Shown here in pieces: positions 20,779 to 61,316 of a stretch of 64,000 bases of DNA. The DNA is taken from assembly GCF_048403405.1 (NCBI RefSeq), contig NZ_CP183131.1. One strand, 5' to 3'. Below the pieces are notes generated by a model, which did not search any database, had not been told where the DNA came from, and saw only the letters and a list, made by a program, of their open reading frames with translations. How positions within the stretch are numbered: the stretch's first letter is position 1; each line of letters starts with the position of its first letter. The position numbers and the translations under genes are program-made. This DNA is from Escherichia coli (lineage in GTDB: Bacteria; Pseudomonadota; Gammaproteobacteria; Enterobacterales; Enterobacteriaceae).

Positions 20779-21786
20779 TCAATTGTTACAGCAATCATTC
20801 CATCGCCAGATGGTGTAAATAGGGTCTTGCCCAATTGCCGGTATAGTTCGCGCCAGACCCCACGTAAGAGTGGATTCGCCAATTACGTGAGATGAGTTTG
20901 TCTCTGGAACCGGATGCAATAGCGTGAATTTGTACTGCGTTTTGGGTAGTGTTGGGCTAATAACACCTCTACACATAGCCTCAGAACCCATTGTCTTCCA
21001 CGCTAACCCCCGGCGATGCAAAGCAGCCAGAACCCTTGTGCTAAGAAGACTGCTATCGCGGATAACACCTTTTCCACCATTCTGGTTGCCACTAAATGGA
21101 TACAGGGTGCCCCATGAACCAGCACACCAGAAAAGCTGTTTTAAAGGTTTTCCAGCGGTTGATGAGACAGCATCAGCAGTACACGCAGCCGCCGCAATTG
21201 GGTTTGCTACTGCCGCCGCCTCTGGATTGGTAAAAAAAGCGAGCTCATCATTGTTCCAGGTCGGGTCGAGCTCCGACATGTACATGATGTCGAGATCCAT
21301 ATACCCATCAGCATTACAGGTCTGCTTAATAAATAAATCGAGCATCACCAACAGAGGAAACGCATAGTAGTGATAGTGCATAAAAGAACCATCACCACCA
21401 TCCATGTCTCCCATGCCATGATGCCCTTGGTTAGTCCTATCAAACGGGAACCTGACACCATTCAAGACAGATGAGCAGCCAGGCACTCTCTGAAATTCAA
21501 CAAGCCGTGCTGGCTCCCACATAGAAGTGGTGACTCCAGGCCGAGGGACCCCTAGATTATCCTCGCACATACACAGAGGGTTGCTTACGGCTTCACTCGG
21601 GAATGATCCGCCTCCACCACTTATAGGAACCCCTGCTACTTTGATGGGAAAAATACAGCTCCAGCAGATGTCAGTAATCAGTTTTCCGCCGATTACTTCC
21701 GCATTCTGGCACCCAGGGTCAGCCGATACCGAACGAACCCAAAAGACCGCGCTAACGGCAATGACCCGTAGAATTTTTTGCATCAT
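20779..21786 (-). CDS. traU: conjugal transfer pilus assembly protein TraU
   Basis: Signal peptide and Cys-containing TraU-like sequence; gene order; ORF track 20779..21858. Confidence 0.85.
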   Translation of the reverse strand: MMQKILRVIAVSAVFWVRSVSADPGCQNAEVIGGKLITDICWSCIFPIKVAGVPISGGGGSFPSEAVSNPLCMCEDNLGVPRPGVTTSMWEPARLVEFQRVPGCSSVLNGVRFPFDRTNQGHHGMGDMDGGDGSFMHYHYYAFPLLVMLDLFIKQTCNADGYMDLDIMYMSELDPTWNNDELAFFTNPEAAAVANPIAAAACTADAVSSTAGKPLKQLFWCAGSWGTLYPFSGNQNGGKGVIRDSSLLSTRVLAALHRRGLAWKTMGSEAMCRGVISPTLPKTQYKFTLLHPVPETNSSHVIGESTLTWGLARTIPAIGQDPIYTIWRWNDCCNN

Positions 21787-22454
21787 GGTAAGGCCTTTAC
21801 GTAATTCAAGTGTTTCTCCATGACAGCAGGCTTCCCGTGATAGAAACCTTGTTGCCATGACAGTCCAAGTAATTTGGCGCTCTCCCCCAATGGGAAGCTC
21901 TCCACCTGCTCAGCAATGAGCTGTATGCCTTTTCGGCGGCAGTGGAGGATGGCCGAGTAGTCTTCAAGCGACCGCAGTCTTCTCGCGTCAAACTTGCAAT
22001 AGTGCCAGTCATAACGACTCAGGCGCTCCAGCGAAGAGTTTTTGTCTCCATAGTCATCCAGCGCCAGCTCAACCCCTATTTCGGTAAGAGCCTCCCATCT
22101 CAATGCGAGAGAGGCATCCTGAATGCCCTCGGTAATCTCGATGACAAGCCGTGATGAGTGATTCTTAGCAATGTCGCGGACAACCCTCCACCACGCTTTG
22201 AAAATGACGTCTGATTGCAAAGTATGTTCAGAGACATTCAGAAAAAGAGCTGGGTACAGATCCAAGCAATAATGAAGGTTGTCCTGAATGAACCGTGCCA
22301 TCTCCATATCCACCAGCCCCCAATAAGGAGGTGATGACAGAGAGGATGGTGTAAGAACCCGGCCTTCGTCGTACCAACGAGCCAGTACCTCAGCAGCGAC
22401 AAACGAACCTGTGCCGACGTCTTTAATTGGTTGGAAAGCCGGGGCAAAAATCAT
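21783..22454 (-). CDS. stand-alone EAL-domain protein (putative c-di-GMP phosphodiesterase)
   Basis: EAL-like motifs EVLAR, N, EITE, DDYGD, KFD, AEQVES, QQGFYHGKP; start and stop overlap traW and traU. Confidence 0.7.
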   Translation of the reverse strand: MIFAPAFQPIKDVGTGSFVAAEVLARWYDEGRVLTPSSLSSPPYWGLVDMEMARFIQDNLHYCLDLYPALFLNVSEHTLQSDVIFKAWWRVVRDIAKNHSSRLVIEITEGIQDASLALRWEALTEIGVELALDDYGDKNSSLERLSRYDWHYCKFDARRLRSLEDYSAILHCRRKGIQLIAEQVESFPLGESAKLLGLSWQQGFYHGKPAVMEKHLNYVKALP

Positions 22455-23716
22455 TCACCGCCCTCCTCAGCAAGTTCGCGGACAACAAACTTCTTGCCTC
22501 TGGCAGTAATGACGCTCGGTGTGTGCTCCAGCTCGAACCGGGTAATCAGATCTGGCGTCAGCAGATATACCGGCGCGTCAAAGTTGTCGGTGACACTCTT
22601 GTAGGAATCCCAGCCTTTGTCTTTGTCGAACTCTGTGGCGATATAGGTAATCCGTTGTACGCCAGGTTCCTGCTTAATTTCAGGCAGCTTCTTGGCGAGC
22701 AGCTCCATTTGCTTTTTGTCCAGCGGGTCGAAAACTACGACCGCTTGGGTAAATGGCCGCGTTCCAGGCTTGCAAACTTCCTTCGGATCGCACAATGGGT
22801 TGATCACGTCACCCGCGTGAGCGAACACAGTGCCATCCGGAGTGCTGATGTCACTGGTGATCATGACGCTAGGGTCAATTTCTCGTGTTCGAGATTTTGG
22901 CGCTCTGGGCAGCTCATTGAAATTCTGCTTGGTCCAGAAGCGCTCTATAGCCTGTTTCTTCTTCTCTTCCCAGTCGATATTGGCAAGGCGTTTCTTGGCA
23001 ACATCAATAAGGTCTGGCTCACTGATTTTCTCCACCGGCCCCTTAACGCCGAGATCGCCTTTTTCTCCGTTATCCACTTCCCGAGCCAACCATACCGGGT
23101 CGGACAACCCGGAGACCTGGGCGACGACGTTTGGTTGTTCGCCAGGCAGCGGCTCATCCTCCAGCATCACAATCGTGGGAACGGCTGTGATGTTGTACGT
23201 TTTGAACAACGTAGGGTTGATGATGATGTTCGGCACTGGGTCTTTTTTGGCCGCGAGCGCCTGAATAGCTTTAACTCCCTGCCCCAAGTTCATTCCTTCC
23301 GGGATGCCACGGAACACAATTACAGAATCAGGCTGGCCTGACACCGCCGTTAGGACGTCATCTAACCCCTGTTCGCCAAGAGACAACGAGGCGAAAACCA
23401 GTATCCGATGGTCAGAGTAGATACCCTTTTCAGCCTGTTTCCGGTGCATCTCCTTGAGCGTTGGGTTAGTAGTTTGGAGCTGCTTGAAAAATGCCTTGGC
23501 TTCGGCCTGAGCCTCGTCCATGTGTTGGTTTTGCAACAGAGATGGCATTTCCATCTTCTGGGCCTTTTGGGCAATTTGCTTTCCTTTCTCAATAAGCGCC
23601 TTATCCTGCTCTGTGAGCGGAGACTCTTGAGCGTATGCCCCGCCAGCCACAGAGAATATCAACGCCACCAGAACGCTCTTAGAACAGGGGATATGCGCGG
23701 CCAATGATCTGATCAT
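22451..23716 (-). CDS. traW: TraW-like pilus assembly protein (long form, possibly TrbC-TraW fusion)
   Basis: Signal peptide; position between trhF and traU; 421 aa, longer than F-plasmid TraW. Confidence 0.7.
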   Translation of the reverse strand: MIRSLAAHIPCSKSVLVALIFSVAGGAYAQESPLTEQDKALIEKGKQIAQKAQKMEMPSLLQNQHMDEAQAEAKAFFKQLQTTNPTLKEMHRKQAEKGIYSDHRILVFASLSLGEQGLDDVLTAVSGQPDSVIVFRGIPEGMNLGQGVKAIQALAAKKDPVPNIIINPTLFKTYNITAVPTIVMLEDEPLPGEQPNVVAQVSGLSDPVWLAREVDNGEKGDLGVKGPVEKISEPDLIDVAKKRLANIDWEEKKKQAIERFWTKQNFNELPRAPKSRTREIDPSVMITSDISTPDGTVFAHAGDVINPLCDPKEVCKPGTRPFTQAVVVFDPLDKKQMELLAKKLPEIKQEPGVQRITYIATEFDKDKGWDSYKSVTDNFDAPVYLLTPDLITRFELEHTPSVITARGKKFVVRELAEEGGE

Positions 23717-24209
23717 TTTTCACAGTCCCCCAGTAACGTGAGTCGAAGCTGAATGGGCTTTTGCCCATAAACCAGTAGTTATTCTCTTTCAGCGTGGTCT
23801 TGCCGTAAAAGTGGCTCTCTGGCAGATGTAGTTTCCCTGCGAGCTGGAGCCCCTCTCCGACGACATCACCATTGACGGTGATCTTCCACTTATCGTTGAT
23901 CTCGACTTTATCCCCCGGCATACCGGTGAGGATTTTGACCATGCGAGTCCCGTCCTTGTAGAAAGGCTGCATGTTCTTGGCTTGGAAGGCGTAAACAGCT
24001 CCCCTCTCCAGAGTTTGGTCGTTCAGATCAATGAGGAAGAAGGTGTAACCCGGCAGGCACTTCTCCTGTTGTGGATCAATGCCAATACGGTAGCGGCTGG
24101 CAAAGGCCGCACCAGCAGCCCAAAGAACCAGTAGTGTCACACCGGCCTTAACCCCGAAGCGCTTCCAGGATTCCTTTTTGACGAAATACTTCTTGAGTGG
24201 AAAATTCAT
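23679..24209 (-). CDS. trhF: signal peptidase I-like conjugative peptidase (TraF/TrhF)
   Basis: S26 peptidase box SFDSRYWG; N-terminal TM; RBS GAGGTG. Confidence 0.8.
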   Translation of the reverse strand: MNFPLKKYFVKKESWKRFGVKAGVTLLVLWAAGAAFASRYRIGIDPQQEKCLPGYTFFLIDLNDQTLERGAVYAFQAKNMQPFYKDGTRMVKILTGMPGDKVEINDKWKITVNGDVVGEGLQLAGKLHLPESHFYGKTTLKENNYWFMGKSPFSFDSRYWGTVKNDQIIGRAYPLF

Positions 24210-24523
24210 TTCAGCACCTCATCAGGGAGGTACACGTCACTTGGAGCACCGACGACAGCACTTGCGTCAAGGACCAAATAACCTGCGTCTTTCAACTTCA
24301 AAATTGCGTCATTGGTCTTGACCATCAGTCTTTCAACTTCCTCCTGAGAGGCACCAGCGGGATACGCCGACGCCACTTTAGCGAAGTCAACCACGACCAC
24401 TGGCGGGGTTTGATTCAAACGCTGATGGATGCTTGCCGTTTGTTCGCTCATCACGTAGTAGCTACCGCCGAAGCCACCAGCGGCACCGAGAATGGCGGCG
24501 ATTGCGATTGATTTAATGTCCAT
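24206..24523 (-). CDS. TrbI-like inner-membrane conjugation protein
   Basis: N-terminal TM and ..YLVLDASAVVGAPSDV.. resembling F TrbI ..VILVSPAVVQGAPDIT.. Confidence 0.5.
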   Translation of the reverse strand: MDIKSIAIAAILGAAGGFGGSYYVMSEQTASIHQRLNQTPPVVVVDFAKVASAYPAGASQEEVERLMVKTNDAILKLKDAGYLVLDASAVVGAPSDVYLPDEVLK

Positions 24524-24537: not shown

Positions 24538-26985
24538 TTATGCAGCCTGCTGACGGCTTCGCATCACGGCCTTGATTGCCTCAGGAATGCTCATGCCTTG
24601 TTTCACAAACTGGTCGATGGCGTTAACGTCCACCGGATCGGTCGAATAAAGCAGCTTCTGGAAGTCGCCCACTATCAAGCGTCCGACGCCCATGCCGCTC
24701 TTCGATTTGATAAAGATTTCTGAGTACACGCCCTGGATGGTGTGTACCGTCTTGAGGGTGTGGAACCCGCCCTCTGAAAGGGTCAGACGACCGCTACGTT
24801 TAACAGATTCCACGGTTTCTTCGGTTTGGCCGAGCAAGTACATGCTGGCCGAGTTCTCCGCGATGGCGCGGCCCACTGCGTTCTCATAGAGGTCGTTGAT
24901 GGACTGCGTTGCAATGACAACGGAGCCACCGTACTTACGGAATTTGCGGTAGGCATGTTCCATGAAGACCGAGACCTCGCCCTCTTTGAGCAGGTCCCAG
25001 GCCTCATCCACGATGACGACTTTCTTGCGGTTACGTTCACCCAGGAATACTTCTTGCTGGATCTGGTAAATAAGCTGGAGCAGTACAACCTGACGCAAGT
25101 GCTTACGCCCTTGCAGTTCATCGAGCTCCAGTACAGTGAACTGGTTCTGGAAGCTGACGTTGTTCTTGCGAGAGAAGTATTTCCCGTAGCTACCTTTCGA
25201 CGTAAAGGCGTAGAGCTGCTGACCAATATCCTTGAGGCGCTGGTCGTTTTCTTCTTCCAGACAGCGCTCAGCGATGTCGTCAACCTTCATCTCTTTACCT
25301 TTCTCTTCCCACAGGCGAGAAAGGACCTGTTTCAGCGCAGAGATTTGCCATTCATCCAGCAAGCCTTTGGCCGACGCCATTGCACAAACGAGGCTGACAA
25401 TCGCGTCTTCTTCGTCCTCGTAGTTCTGTATGAGCTCGAACGGGTTGAGGCAGACGTGCGTTCCTTCTTCAAAGTGAACGAAGTCGCCATTGAGCATTTC
25501 CGACAGCTTCTGGTAGGACTTACCGGCATCAATAACCCAGACCTGAGCACCCTCGGACAAGTAGGAAAAAATCAGTTCGTTGGTAAGGAACGATTTACCC
25601 GAGCCGGATTCGGCTGCGATCACCAGGTTTTTGTTGGTATTACTGTCGTGAAGAGACAGACTCATGAGCTGGCCGTTGCGGGAAATCAGCGCTGCATGAT
25701 AGGTCCCGGTCCCCTTCCATTCCCCAAACACCGGCAGGACCACAGCCGCCTGCTCGGTTGTCATGGTCTTGTAGCGGAATAGGTCTCGCACTGCATCCCG
25801 GTCTGTACAGAATGGCAGGCAGTTGAGGAACATCGGCAGAGCAACGAACTTATCCTCCATCAGCTCGAACCGAGATTCACGCCAGATGTTTCGTGCGGCC
25901 ATCGCCGCCGCTTCAACACGTTCTTTGGTTGGAGCAAATAAAACCACCGAGTAGGTGATCTTGACTGGCTTAGCCCCCTCTTTCATGGACTCATAGAGAG
26001 TGTCGAAGCTCTCCTTTTTGTCCGCCAGCACCGGCACGAATTTGAGCATCGGCCCGTAGGCTTGGTTTACAGTGAACTGGCGTTTGCGCTCCAGAGTGTT
26101 TTTCGTGCTTTCTGCCTCAGGGAAAAACACATTGGTCACAACCATGTAGTTTTCTTTGATGCTGGAGTTGCCGCCGCTGAGATCCCCGGCATAGGTCAAC
26201 GCATCACCAAAGTAGAAAACGTCAGGCAGCTTTTTCGCTGACATGACTTTCGCGTGGTAGTCCCCCAGCCTGATGCCGTTCTTGCTGACTTCCACATCAG
26301 TGCCGTAATCGAAGATTTGCTCGCAGATGGGCTTATCCATCTCCCAATCCACAGAGTCATGTCGCCATGAAGCATCCGGCCCCCAATTCAGGATGGTGCT
26401 CATGATCCGGATGTAGTTCACCGCCGTCATTGTGCGGGGACGCAGACCAACGGTTTGAAGCGATGATTCGACCTTCGTGCGAAGCTGTGCGAGCTGCTGG
26501 AGTTCGCTTTCAGTCGGGTTATTGTTCTTGATGGGGACTTTGCACGTAACGAACAGCTTGAGGTCTTGGATCAAGCCATTGTCGTAGATACCTTTGTTGG
26601 TCTTGGCAAATATGCGTTCTGTCGTGTGGTGCTGGAGGAAGTTAATCCGTTCCTTGATGACAGATGTCAGCAGCTCGTGACGGAAGCCATCACGCAACCC
26701 CATCATCCGGTACATCTCCTGATTGATGTCCGGGGAGCGGAACAGAACAAACTGGAGCGTAGTCTTCGACGGGAACTCCTGATTCAGGAAACCGTTCATT
26801 CGCTCCTGAACTTTTTCATCGGCACCACACAGGGGCTCACACATGAAACCAAAGCCTGCACTGTGGTCATCCATAAGGAAGACATGATCGTCTTCGTCAT
26901 AGGCCAGGACAGGAATAATCCCGGCAGCTCGCAAGTGCTCCGGGATCAACGTTTCTTCGAGTTTCTTTTTGATGGTTACGATCAT
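24538..26985 (-). CDS. traC: conjugative transfer ATPase TraC (VirB4-like)
   Basis: 815 aa; Walker A AAESGSGKS; gene order. Confidence 0.9.
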   Translation of the reverse strand: MIVTIKKKLEETLIPEHLRAAGIIPVLAYDEDDHVFLMDDHSAGFGFMCEPLCGADEKVQERMNGFLNQEFPSKTTLQFVLFRSPDINQEMYRMMGLRDGFRHELLTSVIKERINFLQHHTTERIFAKTNKGIYDNGLIQDLKLFVTCKVPIKNNNPTESELQQLAQLRTKVESSLQTVGLRPRTMTAVNYIRIMSTILNWGPDASWRHDSVDWEMDKPICEQIFDYGTDVEVSKNGIRLGDYHAKVMSAKKLPDVFYFGDALTYAGDLSGGNSSIKENYMVVTNVFFPEAESTKNTLERKRQFTVNQAYGPMLKFVPVLADKKESFDTLYESMKEGAKPVKITYSVVLFAPTKERVEAAAMAARNIWRESRFELMEDKFVALPMFLNCLPFCTDRDAVRDLFRYKTMTTEQAAVVLPVFGEWKGTGTYHAALISRNGQLMSLSLHDSNTNKNLVIAAESGSGKSFLTNELIFSYLSEGAQVWVIDAGKSYQKLSEMLNGDFVHFEEGTHVCLNPFELIQNYEDEEDAIVSLVCAMASAKGLLDEWQISALKQVLSRLWEEKGKEMKVDDIAERCLEEENDQRLKDIGQQLYAFTSKGSYGKYFSRKNNVSFQNQFTVLELDELQGRKHLRQVVLLQLIYQIQQEVFLGERNRKKVVIVDEAWDLLKEGEVSVFMEHAYRKFRKYGGSVVIATQSINDLYENAVGRAIAENSASMYLLGQTEETVESVKRSGRLTLSEGGFHTLKTVHTIQGVYSEIFIKSKSGMGVGRLIVGDFQKLLYSTDPVDVNAIDQFVKQGMSIPEAIKAVMRSRQQAA

Positions 26986-27689
26986 TCAACACTCTCCAAC
27001 CATGATTTCAGGTTCTTCGGACGTCCTTTGCTGACACGACCATCCGGAGCAACCACGAACGGAACGCCCTCAATCCCAATGAAATGAGCTGTCAGCAGCG
27101 TTTGATCGTATTGGCCGGGGTCGCAGGTTTCTTTTGAAGGAAGGGAACCCAAGGTGTTGTTCATCAGCGCATCGAGCGCGTGGGTTTTGTCTTTCGCGCA
27201 GTACAAGTTCTTTGCCAAGCGGTTGGACTCAGCACCCAGAGCAGGAATCACGATAAATTTAAAGGTGTAATCATCCACCAGCGATTTGGCATCACCCATG
27301 AGCTGATGGCAAACCGCGCATCTAGGATCGACAAAGACCACCACCTCTTTGTCACCACGCCCCATCGAAACGGTGTTCAGCGTGTCCACATCCATGCCCA
27401 TGCTCTTGAAGTGGATACGCTCCGCTACATCCCTCATTTGGGACATCGTGTTGAGGGGCTTCTTGCTCCACAGGTCGTAGATTTGTCCTGAAATAACAAA
27501 TCGCCCGTTTTCAGAGAGGAACATGATCTGCCCATCACTTTGGACGGCTCGAACCCCTTTGATGGGTAGCTCTACGATGTCCTCTATCTTCGCCGCTCTG
27601 GGATCGGTGATTTCCAATTTCGATGACGCATGAGCCGTGCCGGTAATAATCCCGAACACCATCAGCGCCCCGAGTAATTTTGTCCGCAT
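26982..27689 (-). CDS. dsbC: thiol:disulfide interchange protein DsbC-like
   Basis: Signal peptide; thioredoxin-like CxxC active site (CAVC); upstream of traC. Confidence 0.8.
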   Translation of the reverse strand: MRTKLLGALMVFGIITGTAHASSKLEITDPRAAKIEDIVELPIKGVRAVQSDGQIMFLSENGRFVISGQIYDLWSKKPLNTMSQMRDVAERIHFKSMGMDVDTLNTVSMGRGDKEVVVFVDPRCAVCHQLMGDAKSLVDDYTFKFIVIPALGAESNRLAKNLYCAKDKTHALDALMNNTLGSLPSKETCDPGQYDQTLLTAHFIGIEGVPFVVAPDGRVSKGRPKNLKSWLESVE

Positions 27690-46816: not shown

Positions 46817-47031
46817 GAAACCAGACAGAGCCAAGCCGTAAGGCTGAGCTCTTCGACGCTTTATCAATCATGCTCCAGGAGGCCGGTTCGAGGGGTAATT
46901 CCCGCGAAGCGGCCTATGTCATTTCTGGAGTCCTCGAAAACCTCTCCAGAGACTACCCCGAAGTCAAAGGTCTGGCCCAAAGCTGGGCTGAGCTGGCGAA
47001 TCTGGAATCAAAGATGAGAGGAGCTGCTTAA
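46798..47031 (+). CDS. hypothetical small protein (77 aa)
   Basis: ORF track; fills gap before topB; weak RBS. Confidence 0.35.
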   Translation: MQSSEIRNQTEPSRKAELFDALSIMLQEAGSRGNSREAAYVISGVLENLSRDYPEVKGLAQSWAELANLESKMRGAA

Positions 47032-49223
47032 TGGACCTTTATATCTGCGAGAAGCCTTCTCAGGCCAAAGATTTGGCTGGCGTAATGAAGGCCTCCCAAC
47101 GAGGTGATGGATTTCTCCATGATGGAGGAAACCGCGTTATTACGTGGGCGTTCGGCCACCTGCTGGAATTGTATATGCCAGACGATTATGACGAACGCTA
47201 CAAGTCATGGTCACTGGAGACCCTCCCTATTGCACCAGAGTCATGGCGGTACAACGTTCGCAAGAGTGCGTTCAAACAGTACAAAATTGTTGAGGGACTG
47301 GTCAAAAAGGCGAGCACCATCTACATCTCAACGGACTACGACCGAGAAGGTGAGGCTATCGCCCGTTCGCTTCTGGATCGATTCCGCTACTCTGGCCCTA
47401 TTCGCCGGGTTTGTTTGACGGCTCTCGATGAGTCAAGCATCAAGAAAGCGCTGAACAACGTAAAGGATGGCAAGGATACGGTCTCACTCTACTACGCCGC
47501 ATTGGCACGGCAACGCGCTGACTGGTTGGTAGGCATGAACGTGAGCCGCCTCTACACAGTGCTGGCCCGAGATGTCGGCTTCAACCACACTCTTCACGTT
47601 GGCAGGGTTATCACCCCAACCGTCGCTCTTGTTTGTCAACGGGACCGAGAGATCGCCGGTTTCACCCCCTCACCATACTGGACTCTGGGTGTGAACGTGT
47701 CCGTACAGAATGGACAGTTTGCCGCCCAATGGATACCACCAGAAGAGTGCAGTGACGAGCAAGGCCGGTGCGTCAATAAGGCCTATGCCGAGCAGGTAGC
47801 CTCCCAGGTCAATGGTGCCAATGCTGTTATCAGCAAAGCAGAAACCAAACCAGGTAAAGAGTCAGCCCCCCTCCCCTTCGATCTAACGTCGCTGCAACAA
47901 TACGCAAGCAAACGATGGGGATACACCGCTCAGCAGGTACTGGATGCAGCTCAAGCTCTGTACGAGACGCACAAAGCGACCACCTACCCTCGTACTGATA
48001 GTCGTTATCTACCCGAGAGCCAAAAGGAAGACATTCCGGACATTCTCCAGGCGCTCATTTTGTCCGATCAGAACGTCTCTGGGCTGGTGGCTGGCGCAGA
48101 TCCTCATCGCAAGGCCAGGGTATTCAATGACGCCAAAGTGACCGCGCACCACGCGATCATTCCAACACCGGCCAGAACAGACATCAGTGCCATGTCTGAG
48201 ATCGAGTTCAATCTTTACGACGCCATCCGTCGTTTCTACATCGCGCAGTTCTACAGCGAGTTCGAGTTCACCAAAACCTCCATCGAGGTGCAGTGTGGGC
48301 GTCACCTCTTTGCGGCCTCTGGTAAGACACCTGCCAAACAAGGCTGGAAGGTTTTGTTTGCTTCTGATAGTGAAAGCAGTCCCAAGGACGAGGGGGAAGA
48401 CACCGACGCGCCGGTTGAACAAGAGAAGCTCCCCAGGGTTAGCCAGGGCGAACCCGCTTTGCTTAATGGTGCCGAGCTGGCAAACAAAATGACGCGGCCA
48501 GCACCGCACTTCACCGAAGCCACATTGCTTGCCGCGATGGAGAACATTGCCCGGTTCGTGACTGAGGAGAAGTTCAAGCAAATTCTCAAAGACACAGCCG
48601 GTTTAGGCACTCCAGCAACACGCGCAAGCATCATCCAGGGCGCTGTTGATAAAGGCTACTTCAAACGTCAGAAAAAGGTACTGCTTGCAACTGATAAGGC
48701 TCATGCGCTTATCGCAGTGCTTCCACCAGCCATCAAATCACCCGGCATGACTGCGGCTTGGGAGCAGGAGCTTGAGAAAGTCGCCTCCGGCTCCGGGAAT
48801 ATGTCTGTCTTCATGAAGCAGATTTCCACCTGGATCTGCCAAATGGTTGAGCAGCTCAAAGTGCCCGCACCGGTTCTGACCAAAGAAGGTGGCGCGATGG
48901 CTAAAGCCTTCGAGGGCGCTAAGCCGCCTTCACACGAATGCTTCAACTGCGGTGGAGAGATGCACCGGATCAAAGGGAAGAACGGATTTTTCTGGGGCTG
49001 CCAGAACGAGGCTTGCAAGAAGACGTTCCCAGACAACCGAGGGAAACCCGAGAAGCGTATCGCGGCTGAGGATTGTCCAGACTGCCCAGATTGCGGTAGC
49101 CCGATGCGTCTCAGGAAAGGAAAAGCGCCCGGCAAGAAGCGAGCTTCTAAGTTCTGGGGCTGCACCGCCTATCCCGATTGCAAAGGCACTATGCCCTTCA
49201 AAAAGTCGGACTTTATGGATTGA
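47031..49223 (+). CDS. topB: DNA topoisomerase III
   Basis: Toprim N-terminus, active-site region TYPRTDSRYL, two C-terminal Cys4 zinc ribbons. Confidence 0.9.
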   Translation: MDLYICEKPSQAKDLAGVMKASQRGDGFLHDGGNRVITWAFGHLLELYMPDDYDERYKSWSLETLPIAPESWRYNVRKSAFKQYKIVEGLVKKASTIYISTDYDREGEAIARSLLDRFRYSGPIRRVCLTALDESSIKKALNNVKDGKDTVSLYYAALARQRADWLVGMNVSRLYTVLARDVGFNHTLHVGRVITPTVALVCQRDREIAGFTPSPYWTLGVNVSVQNGQFAAQWIPPEECSDEQGRCVNKAYAEQVASQVNGANAVISKAETKPGKESAPLPFDLTSLQQYASKRWGYTAQQVLDAAQALYETHKATTYPRTDSRYLPESQKEDIPDILQALILSDQNVSGLVAGADPHRKARVFNDAKVTAHHAIIPTPARTDISAMSEIEFNLYDAIRRFYIAQFYSEFEFTKTSIEVQCGRHLFAASGKTPAKQGWKVLFASDSESSPKDEGEDTDAPVEQEKLPRVSQGEPALLNGAELANKMTRPAPHFTEATLLAAMENIARFVTEEKFKQILKDTAGLGTPATRASIIQGAVDKGYFKRQKKVLLATDKAHALIAVLPPAIKSPGMTAAWEQELEKVASGSGNMSVFMKQISTWICQMVEQLKVPAPVLTKEGGAMAKAFEGAKPPSHECFNCGGEMHRIKGKNGFFWGCQNEACKKTFPDNRGKPEKRIAAEDCPDCPDCGSPMRLRKGKAPGKKRASKFWGCTAYPDCKGTMPFKKSDFMD

Positions 49224-51525: not shown

Positions 51526-52120
51526 TGGCAATGTCCTCTTCATTCTTCTCAGCCCCCAGCTTACTCAGTATTTCAGCTTTTGTAGCGCGATGGCCGCGCA
51601 TTAAAAGAGCATTCAGCAGGTATCCAGTGAACACCTCTGTACTCGGCATACGGTCAAGCAACTCAACATACTGCTCATCCGTCAAATCATGGATCTCACA
51701 ATATTTTTCCACCGCCTTTTCGTAGGCTTCTGCGTAGCCATGAGTGGAAATCCTGAAAGCAATATCCCCATTGCCGTAGCCTGGCTTTGTGACGAGAAAA
51801 CAAGGCGCGAAGTAGGTTCTCTTCACCCCCATCCGGCTCCGGTTCTCAATGCTGATATAAGCCCTCAGCCCCTCAGCAATGATGTTTGGCCCGGAGTTGC
51901 GTCGCCGCTTACAAGTCTTATTCTGACGCTTCACCTCTTCTGCCTCAGCTTCCCACTTTCGGTCCAAGCTGTAGGCCAGCCGGTGAGCTGTTGCGTAGGA
52001 ATACTCTCTCAAGGAGAAGTATTCCTGCCGGTAATCATCCGCCACCCCAACTGTTCGTGCGACACGGAACCCGACGAAACCGGCGTCATGGGTTCCCTCG
52101 CCGTAGTAAATGACTGCCAT
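51464..52120 (-). CDS. DNA-binding protein with two AP2-like repeats
   Basis: Repeated Y..G.F...EEA..AY-like patterns (REYSYATAHRLAYSLD; GYAEAYEKAVEKY). Confidence 0.4.
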   Translation of the reverse strand: MAVIYYGEGTHDAGFVGFRVARTVGVADDYRQEYFSLREYSYATAHRLAYSLDRKWEAEAEEVKRQNKTCKRRRNSGPNIIAEGLRAYISIENRSRMGVKRTYFAPCFLVTKPGYGNGDIAFRISTHGYAEAYEKAVEKYCEIHDLTDEQYVELLDRMPSTEVFTGYLLNALLMRGHRATKAEILSKLGAEKNEEDIANGKGKSGQNRVRCPEYRWAQ

Positions 52121-53547
52121 TATCTACCTTCCTTACTTCTGATACCGTGCTGCACCACGGTATGGCGACCGCAATTCACATTCAGGTGATCCCGAACTGC
52201 GGCCATGACCGCTGAATGCAATCTGTAATCCACACTCTGCCCAAGCGTTTCTGTCGCTTGTTCTTTTGCCATCCACGAAACATCAAAGCTATCAGGTATC
52301 GACATCAACTCCTGAACCAGATCGACCGATGGCTTGTAAATGCGGCCACCGTCTTGGATGTACACTGCATCCTTTACCCCACGATCCTGAGACTTGAGGA
52401 TGGTCGGGCAACTGGTGCTTTCTCTCGTCAAGAACGCAGGCATCCTGCGAGAAGTTGACTCTCTGGCCTGAATTGACTTCAACACTGTGACGTCAGCACA
52501 ATCCCCGAGGTGCTTCTCGATCACCGGCCACAATCGTCCACCAGCTCTCTGCTCAGGTTTCGGTGGAACGAACCCAGGGAAGACCGACGCCACCATGTAA
52601 TAGCGTTCTCGCCCCTGGTAAGCGCCGAAATCCAGACCGTTCAAGACCATCTCAGTGAGGAAGTACCCCATCCGCCGCAGTGTCGTTCCCATCATCGCCC
52701 CGGCTCCGGATGCTTTGAAGTTCGGGACGTTTTCCACCAGCACGACGGCAGGGTTCACGACCTCGATCTGTTTTAGTGCCGGGTAAACCATGTCGAGCAT
52801 GGTGGAGAGATCCTCAAGAGAACGCTCTTTGTCCCTTGGACTTTTGGCGTTTGAGTGGTCATCACACCCCAACGAGTAATGGGCCAAACCAATTGGTGGG
52901 CACTCCGCCAGCAAGGCTCCAAGGCGATCCAGCTCCAGGTGATGAATGTCTTCATTCAGCAGGATACGCGGGGAGCTGTTCACCAGCGTATTGAGCGCAT
53001 GTACTTCACTCAGGTTCCGCCCGGATGCTCTGTCTCTGGCTTCAACTGGACGATGCTCCAAAACAATCTCAGCCTTCCAGCCAAGCGCTTCCATAACATG
53101 AATGTCTACCCCGCCAGTCAATGCCACAAAGGCACGGAAAGGGCTGGTTTTTCTGAACCGATCCGCAATGGCAAAGGCTCTGTTTGCGACAGGAGTGAAG
53201 ACTACTCGGCCTTTTCGCATTTCGACGTGGAAACGCTCTGTATAGCGAGGGAAGCACTTATCTATGAGCCCTTGTCCAGAAAACTCAATAACGGTTTCCA
53301 GCGGGTTGTTGGAGCGACTCTTTGGTTGATACCGGCGCTGATAAACCTGGTGTGTCTGTAGTTCATCGGTCGCTGGGATCACCGAAAAACCGCCCATCCC
53401 CTCCCCTGGCTCAACGGCGATGCCCATACCTGGCTTGAACCCCATAACATCCAAAAAGTTGGACGAAACCCTAACCTTGCGTTTATCGCCTACTCGATTG
53501 AACGCAAGTTGTTTGGTTACTACGGAGGGGGAGACGATCGGTAACAT
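52120..53547 (-). CDS. C5-methyltransferase-like protein, paralog of the gene at 1..1007, Gly-Cys in place of catalytic Pro-Cys
   Basis: ALTGGVD (motif I-like), SLGCDDHSNAKS (motif IV position), VENVPNF (motif VI); related N-terminal domain. Confidence 0.6.
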   Translation of the reverse strand: MLPIVSPSVVTKQLAFNRVGDKRKVRVSSNFLDVMGFKPGMGIAVEPGEGMGGFSVIPATDELQTHQVYQRRYQPKSRSNNPLETVIEFSGQGLIDKCFPRYTERFHVEMRKGRVVFTPVANRAFAIADRFRKTSPFRAFVALTGGVDIHVMEALGWKAEIVLEHRPVEARDRASGRNLSEVHALNTLVNSSPRILLNEDIHHLELDRLGALLAECPPIGLAHYSLGCDDHSNAKSPRDKERSLEDLSTMLDMVYPALKQIEVVNPAVVLVENVPNFKASGAGAMMGTTLRRMGYFLTEMVLNGLDFGAYQGRERYYMVASVFPGFVPPKPEQRAGGRLWPVIEKHLGDCADVTVLKSIQARESTSRRMPAFLTRESTSCPTILKSQDRGVKDAVYIQDGGRIYKPSVDLVQELMSIPDSFDVSWMAKEQATETLGQSVDYRLHSAVMAAVRDHLNVNCGRHTVVQHGIRSKEGR

Positions 53548-57738: not shown

Positions 57739-58920
57739 TTAGCCTTCGACACTCAGGAGTTCAATGTCTGACACAGGCACATGAACATGCTTTTCCTTGC
57801 CTTCGCCATCGAGCGTTTTAACCCAGACAGTAGACGGAACCAGAGCAACACGGTCGGTCATGATGACTCCACGTTTGGTCTCGCCATCCAGGTTAACGTT
57901 GACAGCAAAAATCAAACTGTCAGCCCGGACGTTCTTCCATTCCTTGTCCTTCGGCAGAGGAGGAAGAGCATCACCGCCTTCTTCATCTTTGTCCTTGCCG
58001 CTGTTATCTGGCTGCTTGACAGGATCTTTGTGCTCACCCTCTTCATCACGCAAAGGGTCTTCGTCATCATCGTCCTGACCATTGGAATTTTTACCCCCTT
58101 CCAGTTCCTCCTGGGCAAGGTTCAGGTCGTCATTCCCGGTTTGTTCCGACGTACCATCCCCACCCGAGTTGAGGGATTGCTCGTCGGTGTTGCCAGCGCC
58201 AAGCTCATCATTCTGGTGGGAGCCAGTCAGTGGGCCTTTTTCCATTTCGTCTTTGATACGTTTGGCATCATTCAGCAGCTCACGGCTTTGTTTACGAGTA
58301 ATCCCGTCAGACATAGCCACCGCGCAGACGGCGCGACATCTTTCTTCATTCAGATCGAACAAGAGACGAAGGTTATTCAAGGTCTCTGTATCAGAACATA
58401 CTTCATTATCGTATAACTCACGCACACAGTCAGGTAGCTTGAGCAACGACAGATGCGTAGATACGAAAGTGATATTCTTACCGAGCCGATCAGCAATATC
58501 CTTTTGCTTCCAACCTTCTTCAATAAACAGGTTTAACGCCTCGGCAATCTCTACCGGAGTCAAGTCATCCCGCTGGATGTTTTCGATCAGCTCACCAGCA
58601 GTCTCGTCCAAGTTGTTCTGGACCTTATCATTCACCACCAAGTCAATGGTCTCGATACCAGCGTGTTTACACGCTCTCCAACGCCGCTCCCCTTTTTGGA
58701 TGACGAACTTGCCTTCTTCGTTCTTCGGGAACACGATGATCGGAGACTGCTGCCCTTCGGTCAGCAAGGTTGCCGCCAGCTCTTCAATGTTACGGAAGCG
58801 CTTACGAACCTGGACCTTGGATACAACGTCGTCAACAGGTACGGTAAGAACCTCTTTGCCTTTCTTGCCTTTGGCGGCTTTAGCAAGTTCGGACAGGCCT
58901 TTTAAATTGTTCAATGCCAT
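57739..58920 (-). CDS. parB: partition protein ParB (KorB-like, 393 aa)
   Basis: ParB N-terminal box KGERRWRAC; acidic disordered middle; directly follows parA. Confidence 0.75.
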   Translation of the reverse strand: MALNNLKGLSELAKAAKGKKGKEVLTVPVDDVVSKVQVRKRFRNIEELAATLLTEGQQSPIIVFPKNEEGKFVIQKGERRWRACKHAGIETIDLVVNDKVQNNLDETAGELIENIQRDDLTPVEIAEALNLFIEEGWKQKDIADRLGKNITFVSTHLSLLKLPDCVRELYDNEVCSDTETLNNLRLLFDLNEERCRAVCAVAMSDGITRKQSRELLNDAKRIKDEMEKGPLTGSHQNDELGAGNTDEQSLNSGGDGTSEQTGNDDLNLAQEELEGGKNSNGQDDDDEDPLRDEEGEHKDPVKQPDNSGKDKDEEGGDALPPLPKDKEWKNVRADSLIFAVNVNLDGETKRGVIMTDRVALVPSTVWVKTLDGEGKEKHVHVPVSDIELLSVEG

Positions 58921-58923
58921 CGC

Positions 58924-59709
58924 TTAGCCCACCTTCTCTAATAGTTCTTCCAACACCGCCTCAACTTCTTTGGCCGCGACATGTCCATAGCGAAGCTCCC
59001 AGACAGGGATGCCATCAGTCGTCGCCGTATCGAGCGGAGGCCGGTGCATAATTTTGTTCTCAAACAACAGATCCGGAACTGTGTTCTCCAGCGACTTGAG
59101 GGCTTTGTCGTGATTGACAGAGCGGTCCATGTCGTTGATCACGATGCCCAGGATCTCCAAATCTTGGTTGTACGCCTCGCGCACACCAATAATCGTGTTC
59201 AGGAGACCTTCTACGCCGTCCACAGCGAAGCCAGAGAGCTTTACTGGACATGCCACATGGGTAGACATCACCAACGCTGCCACCAGCTTTCTGCCGAGGC
59301 TAGGCGGACAATCAATCAGCACGTAGTCGTAGTTCTCAAACAGCTCAGCCAAATGGCGAGCCGGATTCATGGCCTGGTCAAGAGGCACAGCCTCCATCTC
59401 AAACAGATCCGGGTCGTTTTTCGGCGTATGAATGAGGTCTGCACCGCAAGGGCAGTGCATGACCTCAATGCCGTCCAGCTCGTAAGCGAACAGCTCTGCG
59501 GTTTTGGTTCCTGTGAGGATGGGCTCGTAGTCACCATCCTCAAGCTCTCGTCTGGGGGCCAGTCGAGAGGACGTGTTCCCCTGACCATCCATATCCAAGA
59601 CCAGCACTTTCTTTTTCTTCTGTAACGCCAGATAAAAGGCCTGCTGGATACAGAGGGTACTCTTACCCACTCCGCCTTTCTGGTTGGCGAAGCTGATTAC
59701 TTTTGCCAT
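58924..59709 (-). CDS. parA: partition ATPase ParA
   Basis: Deviant Walker A KGGVGKST; RBS GAGGTG; ORF track 58924..59715. Confidence 0.85.
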   Translation of the reverse strand: MAKVISFANQKGGVGKSTLCIQQAFYLALQKKKKVLVLDMDGQGNTSSRLAPRRELEDGDYEPILTGTKTAELFAYELDGIEVMHCPCGADLIHTPKNDPDLFEMEAVPLDQAMNPARHLAELFENYDYVLIDCPPSLGRKLVAALVMSTHVACPVKLSGFAVDGVEGLLNTIIGVREAYNQDLEILGIVINDMDRSVNHDKALKSLENTVPDLLFENKIMHRPPLDTATTDGIPVWELRYGHVAAKEVEAVLEELLEKVG

Positions 59710-59757
59710 ACCCACCTCTATTTTGGTTTCTCGCAGGTGATCAAGACCACCCCCAAA

Positions 59758-60500: not shown

Positions 60501-61316
60501 ATGAATAAATCGCTCATCATTTTCGGCATCGTCAACATAACCTCGGACAGTTTCTCCGATGGAGGCCGGTATCTGGCGCCAGACGCAGCCATTGCGCAGG
60601 CGCGTAAGCTGATGGCCGAGGGGGCAGATGTGATCGACCTCGGTCCGGCATCCAGCAATCCCGACGCCGCGCCTGTTTCGTCCGACACAGAAATCGCGCG
60701 TATCGCGCCGGTGCTGGACGCGCTCAAGGCAGATGGCATTCCCGTCTCGCTCGACAGTTATCAACCCGCGACGCAAGCCTATGCCTTGTCGCGTGGTGTG
60801 GCCTATCTCAATGATATTCGCGGTTTTCCAGACGCTGCGTTCTATCCGCAATTGGCGAAATCATCTGCCAAACTCGTCGTTATGCATTCGGTGCAAGACG
60901 GGCAGGCAGATCGGCGCGAGGCACCCGCTGGCGACATCATGGATCACATTGCGGCGTTCTTTGACGCGCGCATCGCGGCGCTGACGGGTGCCGGTATCAA
61001 ACGCAACCGCCTTGTCCTTGATCCCGGCATGGGGTTTTTTCTGGGGGCTGCTCCCGAAACCTCGCTCTCGGTGCTGGCGCGGTTCGATGAATTGCGGCTG
61101 CGCTTCGATTTGCCGGTGCTTCTGTCTGTTTCGCGCAAATCCTTTCTGCGCGCGCTCACAGGCCGTGGTCCGGGGGATGTCGGGGCCGCGACACTCGCTG
61201 CAGAGCTTGCCGCCGCCGCAGGTGGAGCTGACTTCATCCGCACACACGAGCCGCGCCCCTTGCGCGACGGGCTGGCGGTATTGGCGGCGCTGAAAGAAAC
61301 CGCAAGAATTCGTTAA
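60501..61316 (+). CDS. sul2: sulfonamide-resistant dihydropteroate synthase Sul2
   Basis: 271-aa protein recognised as Sul2 from memory of the sequence (MNKSLIIFGIVNITSDSF...). Confidence 0.97.
   Translation: MNKSLIIFGIVNITSDSFSDGGRYLAPDAAIAQARKLMAEGADVIDLGPASSNPDAAPVSSDTEIARIAPVLDALKADGIPVSLDSYQPATQAYALSRGVAYLNDIRGFPDAAFYPQLAKSSAKLVVMHSVQDGQADRREAPAGDIMDHIAAFFDARIAALTGAGIKRNRLVLDPGMGFFLGAAPETSLSVLARFDELRLRFDLPVLLSVSRKSFLRALTGRGPGDVGAATLAAELAAAAGGADFIRTHEPRPLRDGLAVLAALKETARIR

What the first reader, a model, noticed from the sequence alone, without database searches (positions are those of the whole stretch)
21783..22454. Stand-alone EAL-domain gene translationally coupled inside the traW-traU pilus assembly operon
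A 223-aa protein with most EAL signature residues (EVL, N, EITE, DDYGD, KxD, AEQVES, QGF) overlaps the traW stop and the traU start, so it is co-expressed with mating-pair assembly. It suggests the element lowers or senses c-di-GMP during conjugation. The DDFGTG loop is altered to DDYGDK, so it could be catalytically weakened and act as a c-di-GMP sensor instead.
Basis: partly seen in the sequence, partly recalled or inferred. Interest (0 to 1): 0.6.

Follow-up and report, generated by a model that had tools for sequence, protein, structure and literature searches.

The report
EAL phosphodiesterase gene inside IncC transfer operon
This is a real, already annotated but never characterised gene (vcrx082) of IncC multidrug-resistance plasmids: a minimal c-di-GMP phosphodiesterase-type (EAL) protein wired into the operon that builds the mating pilus, so the plasmid probably adjusts the host's biofilm/motility signal whenever it switches on transfer.

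Summary
Window 21783-22454 (- strand) is a 223-aa ORF with a clear EAL domain (Pfam E = 1.2e-22). Its ATG overlaps the traW stop (ATGA) and its stop overlaps the traU start (ATGATG).

- **What the window is:** an IncC plasmid backbone. The gene is vcrx082 of pVCR94. It is identical or nearly identical in about 750 sequenced plasmids and is annotated there as an EAL protein.
- **Expression:** published RNA-seq shows it is switched on by the transfer activator AcaCD, within a predicted dsbC-traU operon.
- **New here, sequence:** all canonical catalytic, metal-binding and substrate-binding residues are invariant across relatives down to 29% identity. dN/dS is 0.07-0.17. Only loop 6 (DDYGDKNSS) and the G of EGVE deviate, and they do so family-wide.
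- **New here, distribution:** the traW-EAL-traU arrangement is conserved across A/C-like elements and a Pseudomonas plasmid clade. It is absent from SXT/R391-like and many other relatives, was lost twice within the A/C-like clade, and is replaced in Marinobacter by a catalytically dead homologue.

Most likely it is an accessory, active c-di-GMP phosphodiesterase made only in transfer-competent cells. A sensor or scaffold role is a real minority possibility. No enzyme or transfer data exist. It is a new member of a known kind, of moderate interest.

The parts
21783..22454 (-). vcrx082-type gene: 223-aa minimal stand-alone EAL-domain protein (identical to the CDS annotated WP_001337754.1 in pT212), predicted cytoplasmic c-di-GMP phosphodiesterase
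   Evidence: ORF. Pfam EAL E = 1.2e-22. 100% identical to annotated 'EAL domain-containing protein' / 'diguanylate phosphodiesterase' in IncC plasmids. AF2 model pLDDT 91.6 matching EAL structures. Catalytic residues invariant.
22451..22454 (-). ATGA overlap: traW stop (TGA 22451-22453) and EAL start (ATG 22452-22454)
   Evidence: Read directly from the sequence. The same 4-nt overlap is annotated in the IncA, pAQU-like, Pseudomonas and metagenomic homologues.
22462..22468 (-). GAGGAGG Shine-Dalgarno for the EAL gene, inside the 3' end of traW, 7 nt from the ATG
   Evidence: Sequence of the junction. Function is inferred.
21781..21786 (-). ATGATG: EAL stop (TGA 21783-21785) overlapping both candidate traU start codons (21784-21786 and 21781-21783)
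   Evidence: Sequence. The annotated traU start in reference plasmids shares 1 nt with the EAL stop.
22451..23716 (-). traW (TrbC-TraW fusion, periplasmic pilus-assembly protein), immediately upstream
   Evidence: NCBIfam TIGR02743 TraW and TIGR02742 TrbC; annotation.
20779..21783 (-). traU, immediately downstream
   Evidence: NCBIfam PRK13737 TraU, E = 4.6e-75; annotation.
23679..24209 (-). trhF (S26 signal-peptidase-like), same operon
   Evidence: NCBIfam TraF / signal peptidase I; annotation.
24206..24523 (-). vcrx079, 105-aa conserved ORF of unknown function, same operon
   Evidence: ORF. No family hit. Syntenic 105-111-aa ORF in all related loci with annotated or called genes.
24538..26985 (-). 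traC (VirB4-type ATPase), same operon
   Evidence: ORF; annotation of identical plasmids.
26982..27689 (-). dsbC, first gene of the AcaCD-activated mpf2a operon (coordinates mapped from the collinear plasmid pT212)
   Evidence: Annotation of L070, mapped to the window by collinearity. AcaCD site and transcription start upstream of dsbC are reported in PMC4207636.

Best explanation
The gene is vcrx082, a conserved backbone gene of IncA/IncC and A/C-like conjugative elements. It encodes a minimal (223 aa), cytoplasmic, stand-alone EAL-domain protein.

Proposed mechanism, step by step:
1. [quoted passage not shown]
2. It is translated in step with TraW and TraU through overlapping stop/start codons (the anatomy is shown; the coupling is inferred).
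3. The protein most likely hydrolyses c-di-GMP to pGpG using the standard two-metal EAL mechanism (inferred from a complete, invariant catalytic residue set).
4. c-di-GMP therefore drops specifically in cells that are building the mating apparatus, whether donors or newly infected transconjugants. This shifts them away from matrix production and sessility, which favours mating-pair formation or lowers its cost (inferred).

It is an accessory modulator, not a structural part of the type IV secretion system.
For: Identity:
- Pfam EAL E = 1.2e-22.
- A family profile matches proven phosphodiesterases best: YahA/PdeL 6.7e-21, RocR 1.2e-20, TBD1265 1.1e-18. The inactive receptor FimX scores only 5e-6.
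- The AF2 model (pLDDT 91.6) superposes on c-di-GMP-bound EAL structures.

Catalytic competence:
- E22, L24, R26, N73, E106, D133, D134, K154, E182, E185, Q202 and G203 are invariant in 24 homologues of 29-92% identity, where mean column identity is only 55%.
- Q8 is at least 90% conserved there and present in every intact slot protein tabulated.
- The same residues hold in the 13 intact EAL proteins tabulated from independent genome loci. The only exceptions are one E185A and apparent E109S in two Pseudomonas-clade proteins (L002, L051; for L002 the sequence reads EVPE, so this is probably alignment slippage).
- dN/dS is 0.07-0.17, like the neighbouring essential tra genes.

Expression:
- vcrx082 RNA-seq reads 401 / 1 / 2085 in wild type / delta-acaCD / complemented, with a predicted dsbC-traU operon and an AcaCD site upstream of dsbC (PMC4207636 supplement; PMC4542580).
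- No internal promoter or terminator signal above chance.
- The ATGA overlap with traW is annotated in the IncA, pAQU-like, Pseudomonas and metagenomic homologues examined.

Cytoplasmic: there is no N-terminal extension. Residues 1-12 form a confidently modelled strand of the barrel.

Accessory status:
- Absent between traW and traU in SXT/R391 (PMC4542580) and Rts1 (PMC10838148).
- Absent from 27 of 47 informative TraU loci.
- Cleanly deleted in Photorhabdus and Marinomonas elements that keep intact traW and traU.
Against: - No biochemical or genetic test of this protein was found in the searchable literature.
- Loop 6 is DD(Y/F)Gxxx(S/A)x instead of DDFG(T/A)GYSS, and the G of EGVE is never G (it is Q/K/R/C). 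From my own knowledge of the EAL literature (Rao et al. 2009; Romling, Galperin and Gomelsky 2013), a degenerate loop 6 puts a domain in the class that may be inactive or need activation.
- The domain is about 20 residues shorter than crystallised EAL domains and lacks the first 12 Pfam model positions.
- Two Marinobacter elements retain a homologue without catalytic residues in the same slot, so the slot may be selected for something other than catalysis.
- Salmonella isolates with and without the IncC phosphodiesterase showed no consistent RDAR or biofilm difference (PMC11721120). That study was correlative, and transfer genes are normally repressed.
Confidence: 0.55

Rival explanations
1. 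It is a c-di-GMP sensor, 'trigger enzyme' or scaffold. The protein's main job would be to bind a partner, for example a cytoplasmic T4SS component such as the TraC ATPase, the coupling protein, or a regulator. It would gate pilus assembly or DNA transfer according to c-di-GMP, with hydrolysis weak or secondary. FimX (type IV pili) and PdeR/PdeL work in comparable ways.
For: - Loop 6 and the EGVE glycine deviate family-wide.
- Marinobacter elements keep a roughly 222-aa homologue in the identical slot: hhalign probability 94.5%, E = 8e-8.
- That homologue has lost N73, E106, D134 and K154, and no longer reaches Pfam significance.
- It is still an intact ORF at 44% identity between the two species.
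- Non-catalytic family-specific residues (W45, D49, W150, C172) are invariant, and W88 and C153 are at least 90% conserved. The tryptophans corresponding to W88 and W150 persist in the degenerate proteins.
- The strict positional conservation and translational coupling to TraW/TraU suggest stoichiometric production with machine parts.
Against: - Known pure receptors (FimX, LapD, YdiV) have lost catalytic residues. Here every one is invariant under purifying selection.
- The profile matches active enzymes far better than FimX.
- TraW and TraU are periplasmic while the EAL protein is cytoplasmic, so the genomic neighbours are not obvious partners.
- The gene is dispensable in several lineages.
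Confidence: 0.25
2. It hydrolyses another cyclic (di)nucleotide. In this reading it would be a counter-defence enzyme destroying CBASS-type or other nucleotide immune signals in donor or recipient, not a c-di-GMP regulator.
For: A PDB EAL protein annotated as a 'cyclic di nucleotide phosphodiesterase' (6ifq) is among the matches. Mobile elements often carry anti-defence genes. This is a weak, analogy-only case.
Against: - No hit to any PADLOC defence model.
- The gene lies in the middle of the Mpf operon, not in a leading or anti-defence region.
- Its substrate-binding residues are the canonical c-di-GMP set.
Confidence: 0.05
3. It is a hitch-hiking passenger with no role in conjugation. On this view an old insertion between traW and traU persists because removing it cleanly is difficult, since it carries the traU ribosome-binding region. 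Any phosphodiesterase activity would be incidental to transfer.
For: - It is absent from many functional relatives and was lost twice inside the A/C-like clade.
- The Photorhabdus deletion retains exactly the last roughly 30 nt that carry the traU translation signals.
- No biofilm phenotype was seen in Salmonella isolates.
Against: - dN/dS of 0.07-0.17 and invariant active-site residues over very deep divergence (29% identity) mean the protein itself is under selection, not just its DNA.
- GC content is ameliorated to the operon: 50.6% against 49.6-52.6% for the adjacent traC-traU genes (traN is 47.7%).
- It is intact in 755 of 762 matching plasmids.
Confidence: 0.1

Closest known systems
PdeH (YhjH) of E. 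coli and MrkJ of Klebsiella: stand-alone EAL-only c-di-GMP phosphodiesterases
   Same: Single-domain cytoplasmic EAL proteins with the full catalytic residue set. MrkJ sits next to a surface-appendage (type 3 fimbriae) operon and tunes it by lowering c-di-GMP (PMC5023117). PdeH is part of the flagellar regulon (my own knowledge).
   Different: - No orthology: all NCBIfam EAL equivalogs score 18-43 bits against cut-offs of 430-1600.
- About 20-30 residues shorter, with variant loop 6 and E(Q/K/R/C)VE.
- Embedded in, and translationally overlapped with, a conjugative T4SS operon.
- Activity untested.
SfaY/PdeY: EAL protein encoded within the S-fimbrial gene cluster of uropathogenic E. coli
   Same: An EAL gene linked to an adhesin/pilus biogenesis cluster. 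It was shown functional on overexpression (cited in PMC5635171).
   Different: It belongs to a chaperone-usher fimbrial cluster, not a conjugative pilus. It is a different EAL subfamily. I did not compare the sequences directly.
DgcK/DgcL of SXT/R391 ICEs (Bordeleau et al. 2010)
   Same: c-di-GMP turnover genes carried by the sister family of conjugative elements and proposed to aid dissemination (cited in PMC4542580 and PMC3915882).
   Different: They are diguanylate cyclases, so they have the opposite effect on c-di-GMP. They lie in variable cargo hotspots, not in the conserved Mpf operon. SXT/R391 elements have no gene between traW and traU (PMC4542580; SXT/R391-like loci).
FimX (Pseudomonas/Xanthomonas) and LapD: degenerate EAL c-di-GMP receptors controlling surface machines
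   Same: EAL fold used to couple c-di-GMP to a pilus or adhesin machine. This is conceptually closest to the sensor reading and to the degenerate Marinobacter homologues.
   Different: FimX and LapD lack catalytic residues and are multidomain. The IncC protein keeps all catalytic residues and is single-domain. Its profile matches FimX only at 5e-6, against 1e-20 for active enzymes.

Membership tests
EAL domain (Pfam PF00563) | Significant match to the family HMM over most of the domain | tested here: met
   E = 1.2e-22, model positions 13-236 of 236. The first 12 model positions are missing.
EAL domain (Pfam PF00563) | Modified TIM-barrel EAL fold | tested here: met
   AF2 model pLDDT 91.6, pTM 0.88. 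All 50 listed Foldseek PDB hits are EAL domains, E down to 7e-14, TM 0.66-0.78.
Catalytically active EAL c-di-GMP phosphodiesterases (class with full signature) | Metal-binding and catalytic residues: E (of EAL), N, E (ExxE), DD, K, E (of EGVE), plus substrate residues Q (of QP), R (of ExLxR) and Q (of QG) | tested here: met
   Q8, E22, R26, N73, E106, E109, D133, D134, K154, E182, E185 and Q202 are all present. All but Q8 and E109 (at least 90% conserved) are invariant in the family.
Catalytically active EAL c-di-GMP phosphodiesterases (class with full signature) | Conserved loop 6, DDFG(T/A)GYSS (criterion recalled from Rao et al. 2009 and the 2013 MMBR review, not re-read here) | tested here: not met
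   The sequence is DDYGDKNSS; the family pattern is DD[YF]Gxxx[SA]x. D-D-aromatic-G and the first S are kept, but T/A-G-Y is not. By that criterion this is a 'conserved catalytic residues, degenerate loop 6' EAL whose activity must be measured.
Catalytically active EAL c-di-GMP phosphodiesterases (class with full signature) | Measured hydrolysis of c-di-GMP to pGpG | not testable with these tools
   No assay was found in the searchable literature.
Named NCBIfam EAL equivalogs (GepA, DibA, PdeL-type, RimA, LapD, PvrR and others) | Score above the curated whole-protein cut-off | tested here: not met
   Best score 42.8 bits against a cut-off of 1200. RimA scores 31.7 against 430. It is not an orthologue of any named enzyme.
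Degenerate EAL receptors (FimX / LapD / YdiV type) | Loss of one or more catalytic or metal-binding residues | tested here: not met
   None is lost in the IncC protein. The criterion is met only by the Marinobacter slot homologues L043 and L067.
[quoted passage not shown] | Position between traW and traU, same strand, no intergenic gap | tested here: met
   The literature definition is in PMC4542580.
[quoted passage not shown] | AcaCD-dependent co-transcription | not testable with these tools
   Taken from published RNA-seq, ChIP-exo and operon prediction for the same gene (vcrx082) in pVCR94 (PMC4207636). I did not align pVCR94 to the window.
Core (essential) F-type T4SS components | Present in all related T4SS operons and required for transfer | tested here: not met
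   Absent from 27 of 47 informative TraU loci, from SXT/R391 and from Rts1, and lost in Photorhabdus and Marinomonas A/C-like elements. Requirement for transfer was not tested.

The most novel reading that the evidence does not exclude
The traW-traU slot protein is a dedicated c-di-GMP input to an F-type conjugative machine. On this reading it is a trigger enzyme that binds a cytoplasmic Tra component and licenses or blocks pilus assembly or DNA transfer according to the donor's c-di-GMP level. The Marinobacter versions would have become pure adaptors. That would be the first second-messenger checkpoint built into a conjugative T4SS operon, and it sits on the clinically dominant IncC resistance plasmids.
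Probability: 0.15. Interest if true: 0.7.

Novelty: new member of a known kind. Interest (0 to 1): 0.4.

Why it matters
IncC (A/C2) plasmids are major carriers of carbapenemase, cephalosporinase and multidrug resistance genes across Enterobacterales and Vibrio. How they couple transfer to host physiology is little understood.

A c-di-GMP phosphodiesterase that exists only when AcaCD turns on the mating machinery would give the plasmid a direct handle on the host's sessile/motile switch at the moment of transfer. It could explain host- or condition-dependent transfer rates, for example in biofilms versus liquid.

The gene has been carried along in maps as 'vcrx082, unknown' and is dropped from most operon names ('traWU'). 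The evolutionary pattern found here makes the enzyme-versus-sensor question directly testable with a deletion, one point mutant and one enzyme assay:
- deep positional conservation;
- invariant active site;
- repeated clean losses;
- a catalytically dead homologue in one clade.

If it turns out to be only an ordinary accessory phosphodiesterase, it adds one more case to the known tendency of mobile elements to carry c-di-GMP genes.

Tried and rejected
- **Literature.** Ten full-text searches found no paper that characterises the gene. It appears only as 'vcrx082' in an operon list and in an RNA-seq table. The IncC TraDIS study (Hancock et al. 2020) is not held, so whether insertions in this gene affect transfer remains unknown to me. 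One search was badly specified and returned noise.
- **Partner diguanylate cyclase.** No ORF of at least 100 aa in the window has a GGDEF-like motif.
- **Defence or anti-defence role.** No PADLOC hit; PHROGs gives only weak generic EAL matches.
- **Internal promoter or terminator isolating the gene.** Nothing above shuffled expectation on the - strand.
- **Recent acquisition.** GC and GC3 are intermediate between the neighbours, so there is no compositional sign of recent insertion.
- **Orthology to a named phosphodiesterase.** Rejected; all NCBIfam equivalogs fall far below cut-off.
- **Strict confinement of the family to tra operons.** Rejected. An Aeromonas caviae plasmid has a 33%-identical homologue among unrelated small genes. 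More distant hits (Ralstonia, Pantoea, Citrobacter) are generic EAL genes.
- **L009 in the TraU tree.** I entered it in the wrong frame, so its outlier position should be ignored.
- **dS** is saturated for the distant pairs, so dN/dS is reported only where it could be computed.
Full report
**1. The observation**

The window carries an ATG-initiated ORF of 223 codons on the minus strand at exactly 21783-22454. Its translation matches Pfam EAL (PF00563) with E = 1.2e-22 over model positions 13-236 of 236.

Reading the junctions directly:
- The EAL start codon and the stop codon of the upstream gene share ATGA at 22451-22454.
- A GAGGAGG Shine-Dalgarno lies 7 nt upstream of that ATG, inside the upstream gene.
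- The EAL stop (TGA, 21783-21785) lies inside ATGATG, which contains both candidate start codons of the downstream gene.

NCBIfam identifies the upstream protein as a TrbC/TraW fusion and the downstream one as TraU. Further upstream are a signal-peptidase-like TrhF, a 105-aa ORF and TraC.

**2. Where the window comes from**

The 672-nt gene is 95-100% identical in 741 PLSDB plasmids. Of the 762 records with a match, 761 are typed conjugative; the records I opened are typed IncC or IncA, MOBH, MPF_F. In RefSeq it is annotated 'EAL domain-containing protein', and in older records 'diguanylate phosphodiesterase'.

The rest of the window is typical IncC backbone:
- traN, the sfx position, ssb/bet/exo, the Ig-like giant gene, traLEKBVA, traD/traI;
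- topB, dcm, parAB and a sul2-strA-strB resistance segment.

In the pVCR94 nomenclature the gene is vcrx082. [quoted passage not shown] Later papers abbreviate the operon to 'dsbC-traC-trhF-traWU' and omit the gene (PMC11493245).

**3. Expression**

The supplementary RNA-seq table of Carraro et al. 2014 lists vcrx082 at normalised expression:
- 401 in wild-type pVCR94;
- 1 in the delta-acaCD mutant;
- 2085 when acaDC is supplied.

The table also gives a predicted operon dsbC(vcrx077)-traU(vcrx083) and an AcaCD ChIP-exo site and transcription start just upstream of dsbC (PMC4207636). A simple scan finds no promoter-like or terminator-like site above shuffled expectation on the coding strand around the gene.

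Co-expression with mating-pair formation genes is therefore published experimental fact. Translational coupling is an inference from the overlaps.

**4. Is it likely to be an enzyme?**

I collected 23 homologues of 29-92% identity from the protein database and plasmids and aligned them. Mean column identity is 55%, and only 25 columns are invariant.

Those invariant columns include E22, L24, R26, N73, E106, D133, D134, G136, K154, E182, E185, Q202 and G203. This is every canonical metal-binding, catalytic and substrate-contacting position of EAL phosphodiesterases. Q8 and E109, the loop-6-stabilising glutamate, are at least 90% conserved. The one apparent E109 exception reads EVPE and is probably alignment slippage.

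The same holds in 13 further intact proteins tabulated from the independent genome loci. The only departures are one E185A and one more apparent E109S (L051).

Other evidence pointing to an enzyme:
- A profile of the family hits proven enzymes best: YahA/PdeL 6.7e-21, RocR 1.2e-20, TBD1265 1.1e-18. It hits the degenerate receptor FimX only at 5e-6.
- An AlphaFold2 model built on the alignment is confident (pLDDT 91.6, pTM 0.88). It matches only EAL structures, led by the TBD1265-c-di-GMP complex.
- Pairwise Nei-Gojobori dN/dS is 0.12 (against pR148), 0.07 (a divergent IncC) and 0.17 (IncA), similar to trhF, traW and traU in the same pairs.

There is no signal peptide or extension. Residue 1 onwards forms the first strand of the barrel, so the protein should be cytoplasmic. 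Several neighbouring gene products (DsbC, TrhF, TraW, TraU, TraN), by contrast, are exported.

**5. What deviates**

Three features are family-wide:
- **(a) Loop 6.** It reads DD[YF]G-x-x-x-[SA]-x (here DDYGDKNSS) instead of DDFG(T/A)GYSS.
- **(b) The EGVE glycine.** It is never G; it is Q, K, R or C.
- **(c) Size.** The domain is about 20 residues shorter than crystallised EAL domains. This includes an 8-residue deletion between the KxD and E-x-V-E strands and the absence of the first 12 Pfam positions.

By the classification I recall from Rao et al. 2009 and the 2013 MMBR review (not re-read here), 'catalytic residues intact, loop 6 degenerate' is the class whose activity cannot be predicted. 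A recent paper confirms that the field treats loop 6 and its stabilising glutamate as signature elements, and that substitutions outside signature positions can change activity (PMC12900916).

**6. Distribution and evolution**

Every divergent family member I could place on a contig lies in the same context, traC - small ORF - S26 peptidase - TrbC/TraW - EAL - TraU - TraN, with a 4-nt overlap to traW:
- IncA pCf587 (73% identity);
- a divergent IncC (87%);
- pAQU-like Vibrio plasmids (40%);
- Pseudomonas alcaligenes pMRCP2 (about 29%);
- three metagenomic lineages.

One exception is a 33%-identical homologue on an Aeromonas caviae plasmid, outside any tra operon.

To get the denominator I scanned one genome per GTDB species for TraU relatives, which gave 56 loci. 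I then asked what lies between traW and traU:

| Content of the traW-traU slot | Loci |
|---|---|
| Intact EAL gene | 18 |
| Degenerate EAL homologue | 2 |
| No EAL (24 have traW and traU 8-105 nt apart) | 27 |
| Uninformative | 9 |

On a neighbour-joining TraU tree:
- EAL-positive loci fill the whole A/C-like clade (Providencia, Shewanella, Edwardsiella, Vibrio, Alcanivorax, Azomonas, Halomonas and others).
- They also fill a separate Pseudomonas plasmid clade.
- SXT/R391-like, Chromatiaceae, Azotobacter and other clades lack the gene, as does IncT Rts1 (PMC10838148).

Two losses are nested within the A/C-like clade. Marinomonas algarum is one. The other is Photorhabdus caribbeanensis (TraU 94% identical to the window), where a 94-nt gap still carries the last roughly 30 nt of the EAL gene, including the traU ribosome-binding region.

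The gene is thus old, positionally fixed and under selection, but dispensable for the machine.

**7. The Marinobacter proteins**

In two Marinobacter elements the slot holds a roughly 222-aa ORF.
- The two copies are 44% identical to each other.
- The pair aligns to the EAL family profile in register: hhalign probability 94.5%, E = 8e-8, 148 columns.
- The ORF has lost N73, E106, D134 and K154 and no longer reaches Pfam significance.

An ORF maintained at that divergence without catalytic residues suggests the slot protein can be useful without hydrolysis. This is the best evidence for a second, non-catalytic function such as partner binding. Consistent with that, several non-catalytic positions are invariant or nearly so in the family (W45, D49, W88, W150, C153, C172). 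The tryptophans corresponding to W88 and W150 persist in the degenerate proteins.

**8. Mechanism and rivals**

The best-supported reading (confidence 0.55) is an accessory, catalytically competent c-di-GMP phosphodiesterase. It would be produced only in AcaCD-ON cells and would lower c-di-GMP while the mating apparatus is built.

- Shown: domain identity, residue conservation, operon position, AcaCD dependence.
- Inferred: translational coupling, catalysis, and any benefit for mating (less matrix, more motility or lower cost).

Rivals:
- **Sensor, trigger enzyme or scaffold acting on a cytoplasmic Tra component (0.25).** Supported by loop 6 and the Marinobacter proteins; opposed by the invariant active site.
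- **Phosphodiesterase for another cyclic nucleotide, for example counter-defence (0.05).** No PADLOC or contextual support.
- **Passenger gene without a role in transfer (0.1).** Opposed by purifying selection.

The only phenotype data I found are correlative. Salmonella ST213 isolates with IncC plasmids carrying or lacking the phosphodiesterase showed no consistent RDAR or biofilm difference (PMC11721120). That is weak evidence, because tra operons are normally repressed.

**9. Comparison with known systems**

Functionally it resembles stand-alone EAL phosphodiesterases tied to surface-appendage regulons:
- PdeH in the flagellar regulon (own knowledge);
- MrkJ next to type 3 fimbriae (PMC5023117);
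- SfaY/PdeY in the S-fimbrial cluster (PMC5635171).

It is the mirror image of the diguanylate cyclases DgcK and DgcL, which are carried as cargo by SXT/R391 ICEs (cited). It is not an orthologue of any named enzyme, since NCBIfam scores are far below cut-offs. It is a member of the EAL domain family, but fails the 'canonical loop 6' criterion for confident assignment as active.

**10. Verdict**

It is already annotated and listed in the literature as an unnamed operon member, but it has not been functionally examined.

It is a new (uncharacterised) member of a known kind. What is added here:
- the complete and invariant catalytic signature;
- the deep positional conservation with conserved start/stop overlap;
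- the phyletic pattern of clean losses;
- the degenerate Marinobacter homologues.

Together these turn 'enzyme or sensor?' into a cheap, well-posed experiment on a clinically important plasmid family. Interest is 0.4.

Noticed in passing
window 21783-22454 versus L008 (pR148) and L006 (IncA pCf587): The EAL gene is markedly more diverged than its neighbours between plasmid lineages, at synonymous sites as well. dS is 0.097 against 0.021-0.027 for vcrx079, trhF, traW and traU versus pR148, and 1.07 against 0.21-0.44 for vcrx079, trhF and traW versus IncA (traU dS is saturated in that pair). This suggests a recombination patch or a different history for this gene within the operon. PLSDB shows two main alleles: 100% (324 records) and 97.3% (414 records).
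   Followed up: partly
window 24206-24523 (- strand): vcrx079 is a 105-aa ORF between traC and trhF with no NCBIfam, PADLOC or PHROGs hit. It is conserved in position (105-111 aa) in every related locus with annotated or called genes, including the Pseudomonas and metagenomic ones. It is another uncharacterised fixed member of the operon. Its N-terminus (MDIKSIAIAAILGAAGG...) looks like a membrane anchor or signal sequence.
   Followed up: no
L043:2785-3450 and L067:2806-3462 (Marinobacter salicampi, Marinobacter sp. F3R08): A roughly 222-aa ORF sits between traW and traU and is a catalytically dead, Pfam-undetectable relative of the EAL family. It has a strikingly conserved C-terminal motif, DVHDRSELITIEQ(V/L)YA, that is absent from the intact EAL proteins.
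   Followed up: partly
L017:3407-3501 (Photorhabdus caribbeanensis) and L030 (Marinomonas algarum): These are natural clean deletions of the EAL gene from A/C-like elements. The Photorhabdus scar keeps the final roughly 30 nt of the EAL gene (...GTAAGGATCTTACCATGAT), which carry the traU translation-initiation region.
   Followed up: partly
L019:2685-4445 (Paraglaciecola MAG): The EAL reading frame runs on into traU as a single ORF, and this copy also has E185A. It is either an EAL-TraU fusion or an assembly error in the MAG.
   Followed up: no
L004:6013-6633 (Aeromonas caviae plasmid, NZ_CP121792.1): A 33%-identical member of this minimal EAL family lies outside any tra operon, among small hypothetical genes next to a zinc-finger protein. 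This shows the family is not strictly confined to the traW-traU slot.
   Followed up: no
window 60501-63016 (+ strand): sul2, aph(3'')-Ib (strA) and an APH(6)-I family gene (strB position) lie in tandem. I read this as the sul2-containing resistance island of IncC plasmids at the right end of the window. parA/parB are at 57739-59715, topB at 47031-49223, and a dcm-like methyltransferase at 52120-53547.
   Followed up: partly
window 23679-23716: trhF and traW overlap by 38 nt in different frames. This is a much longer overlap than the 4-nt junctions elsewhere in the operon, and it is annotated the same way in the IncC, IncA and pAQU-like plasmids.
   Followed up: no
window 22427-23341 (+ strand): A 304-aa ORF runs antisense to traW and overlaps the EAL start. 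It has no annotation in any reference plasmid and is most likely a spurious shadow ORF.
   Followed up: no
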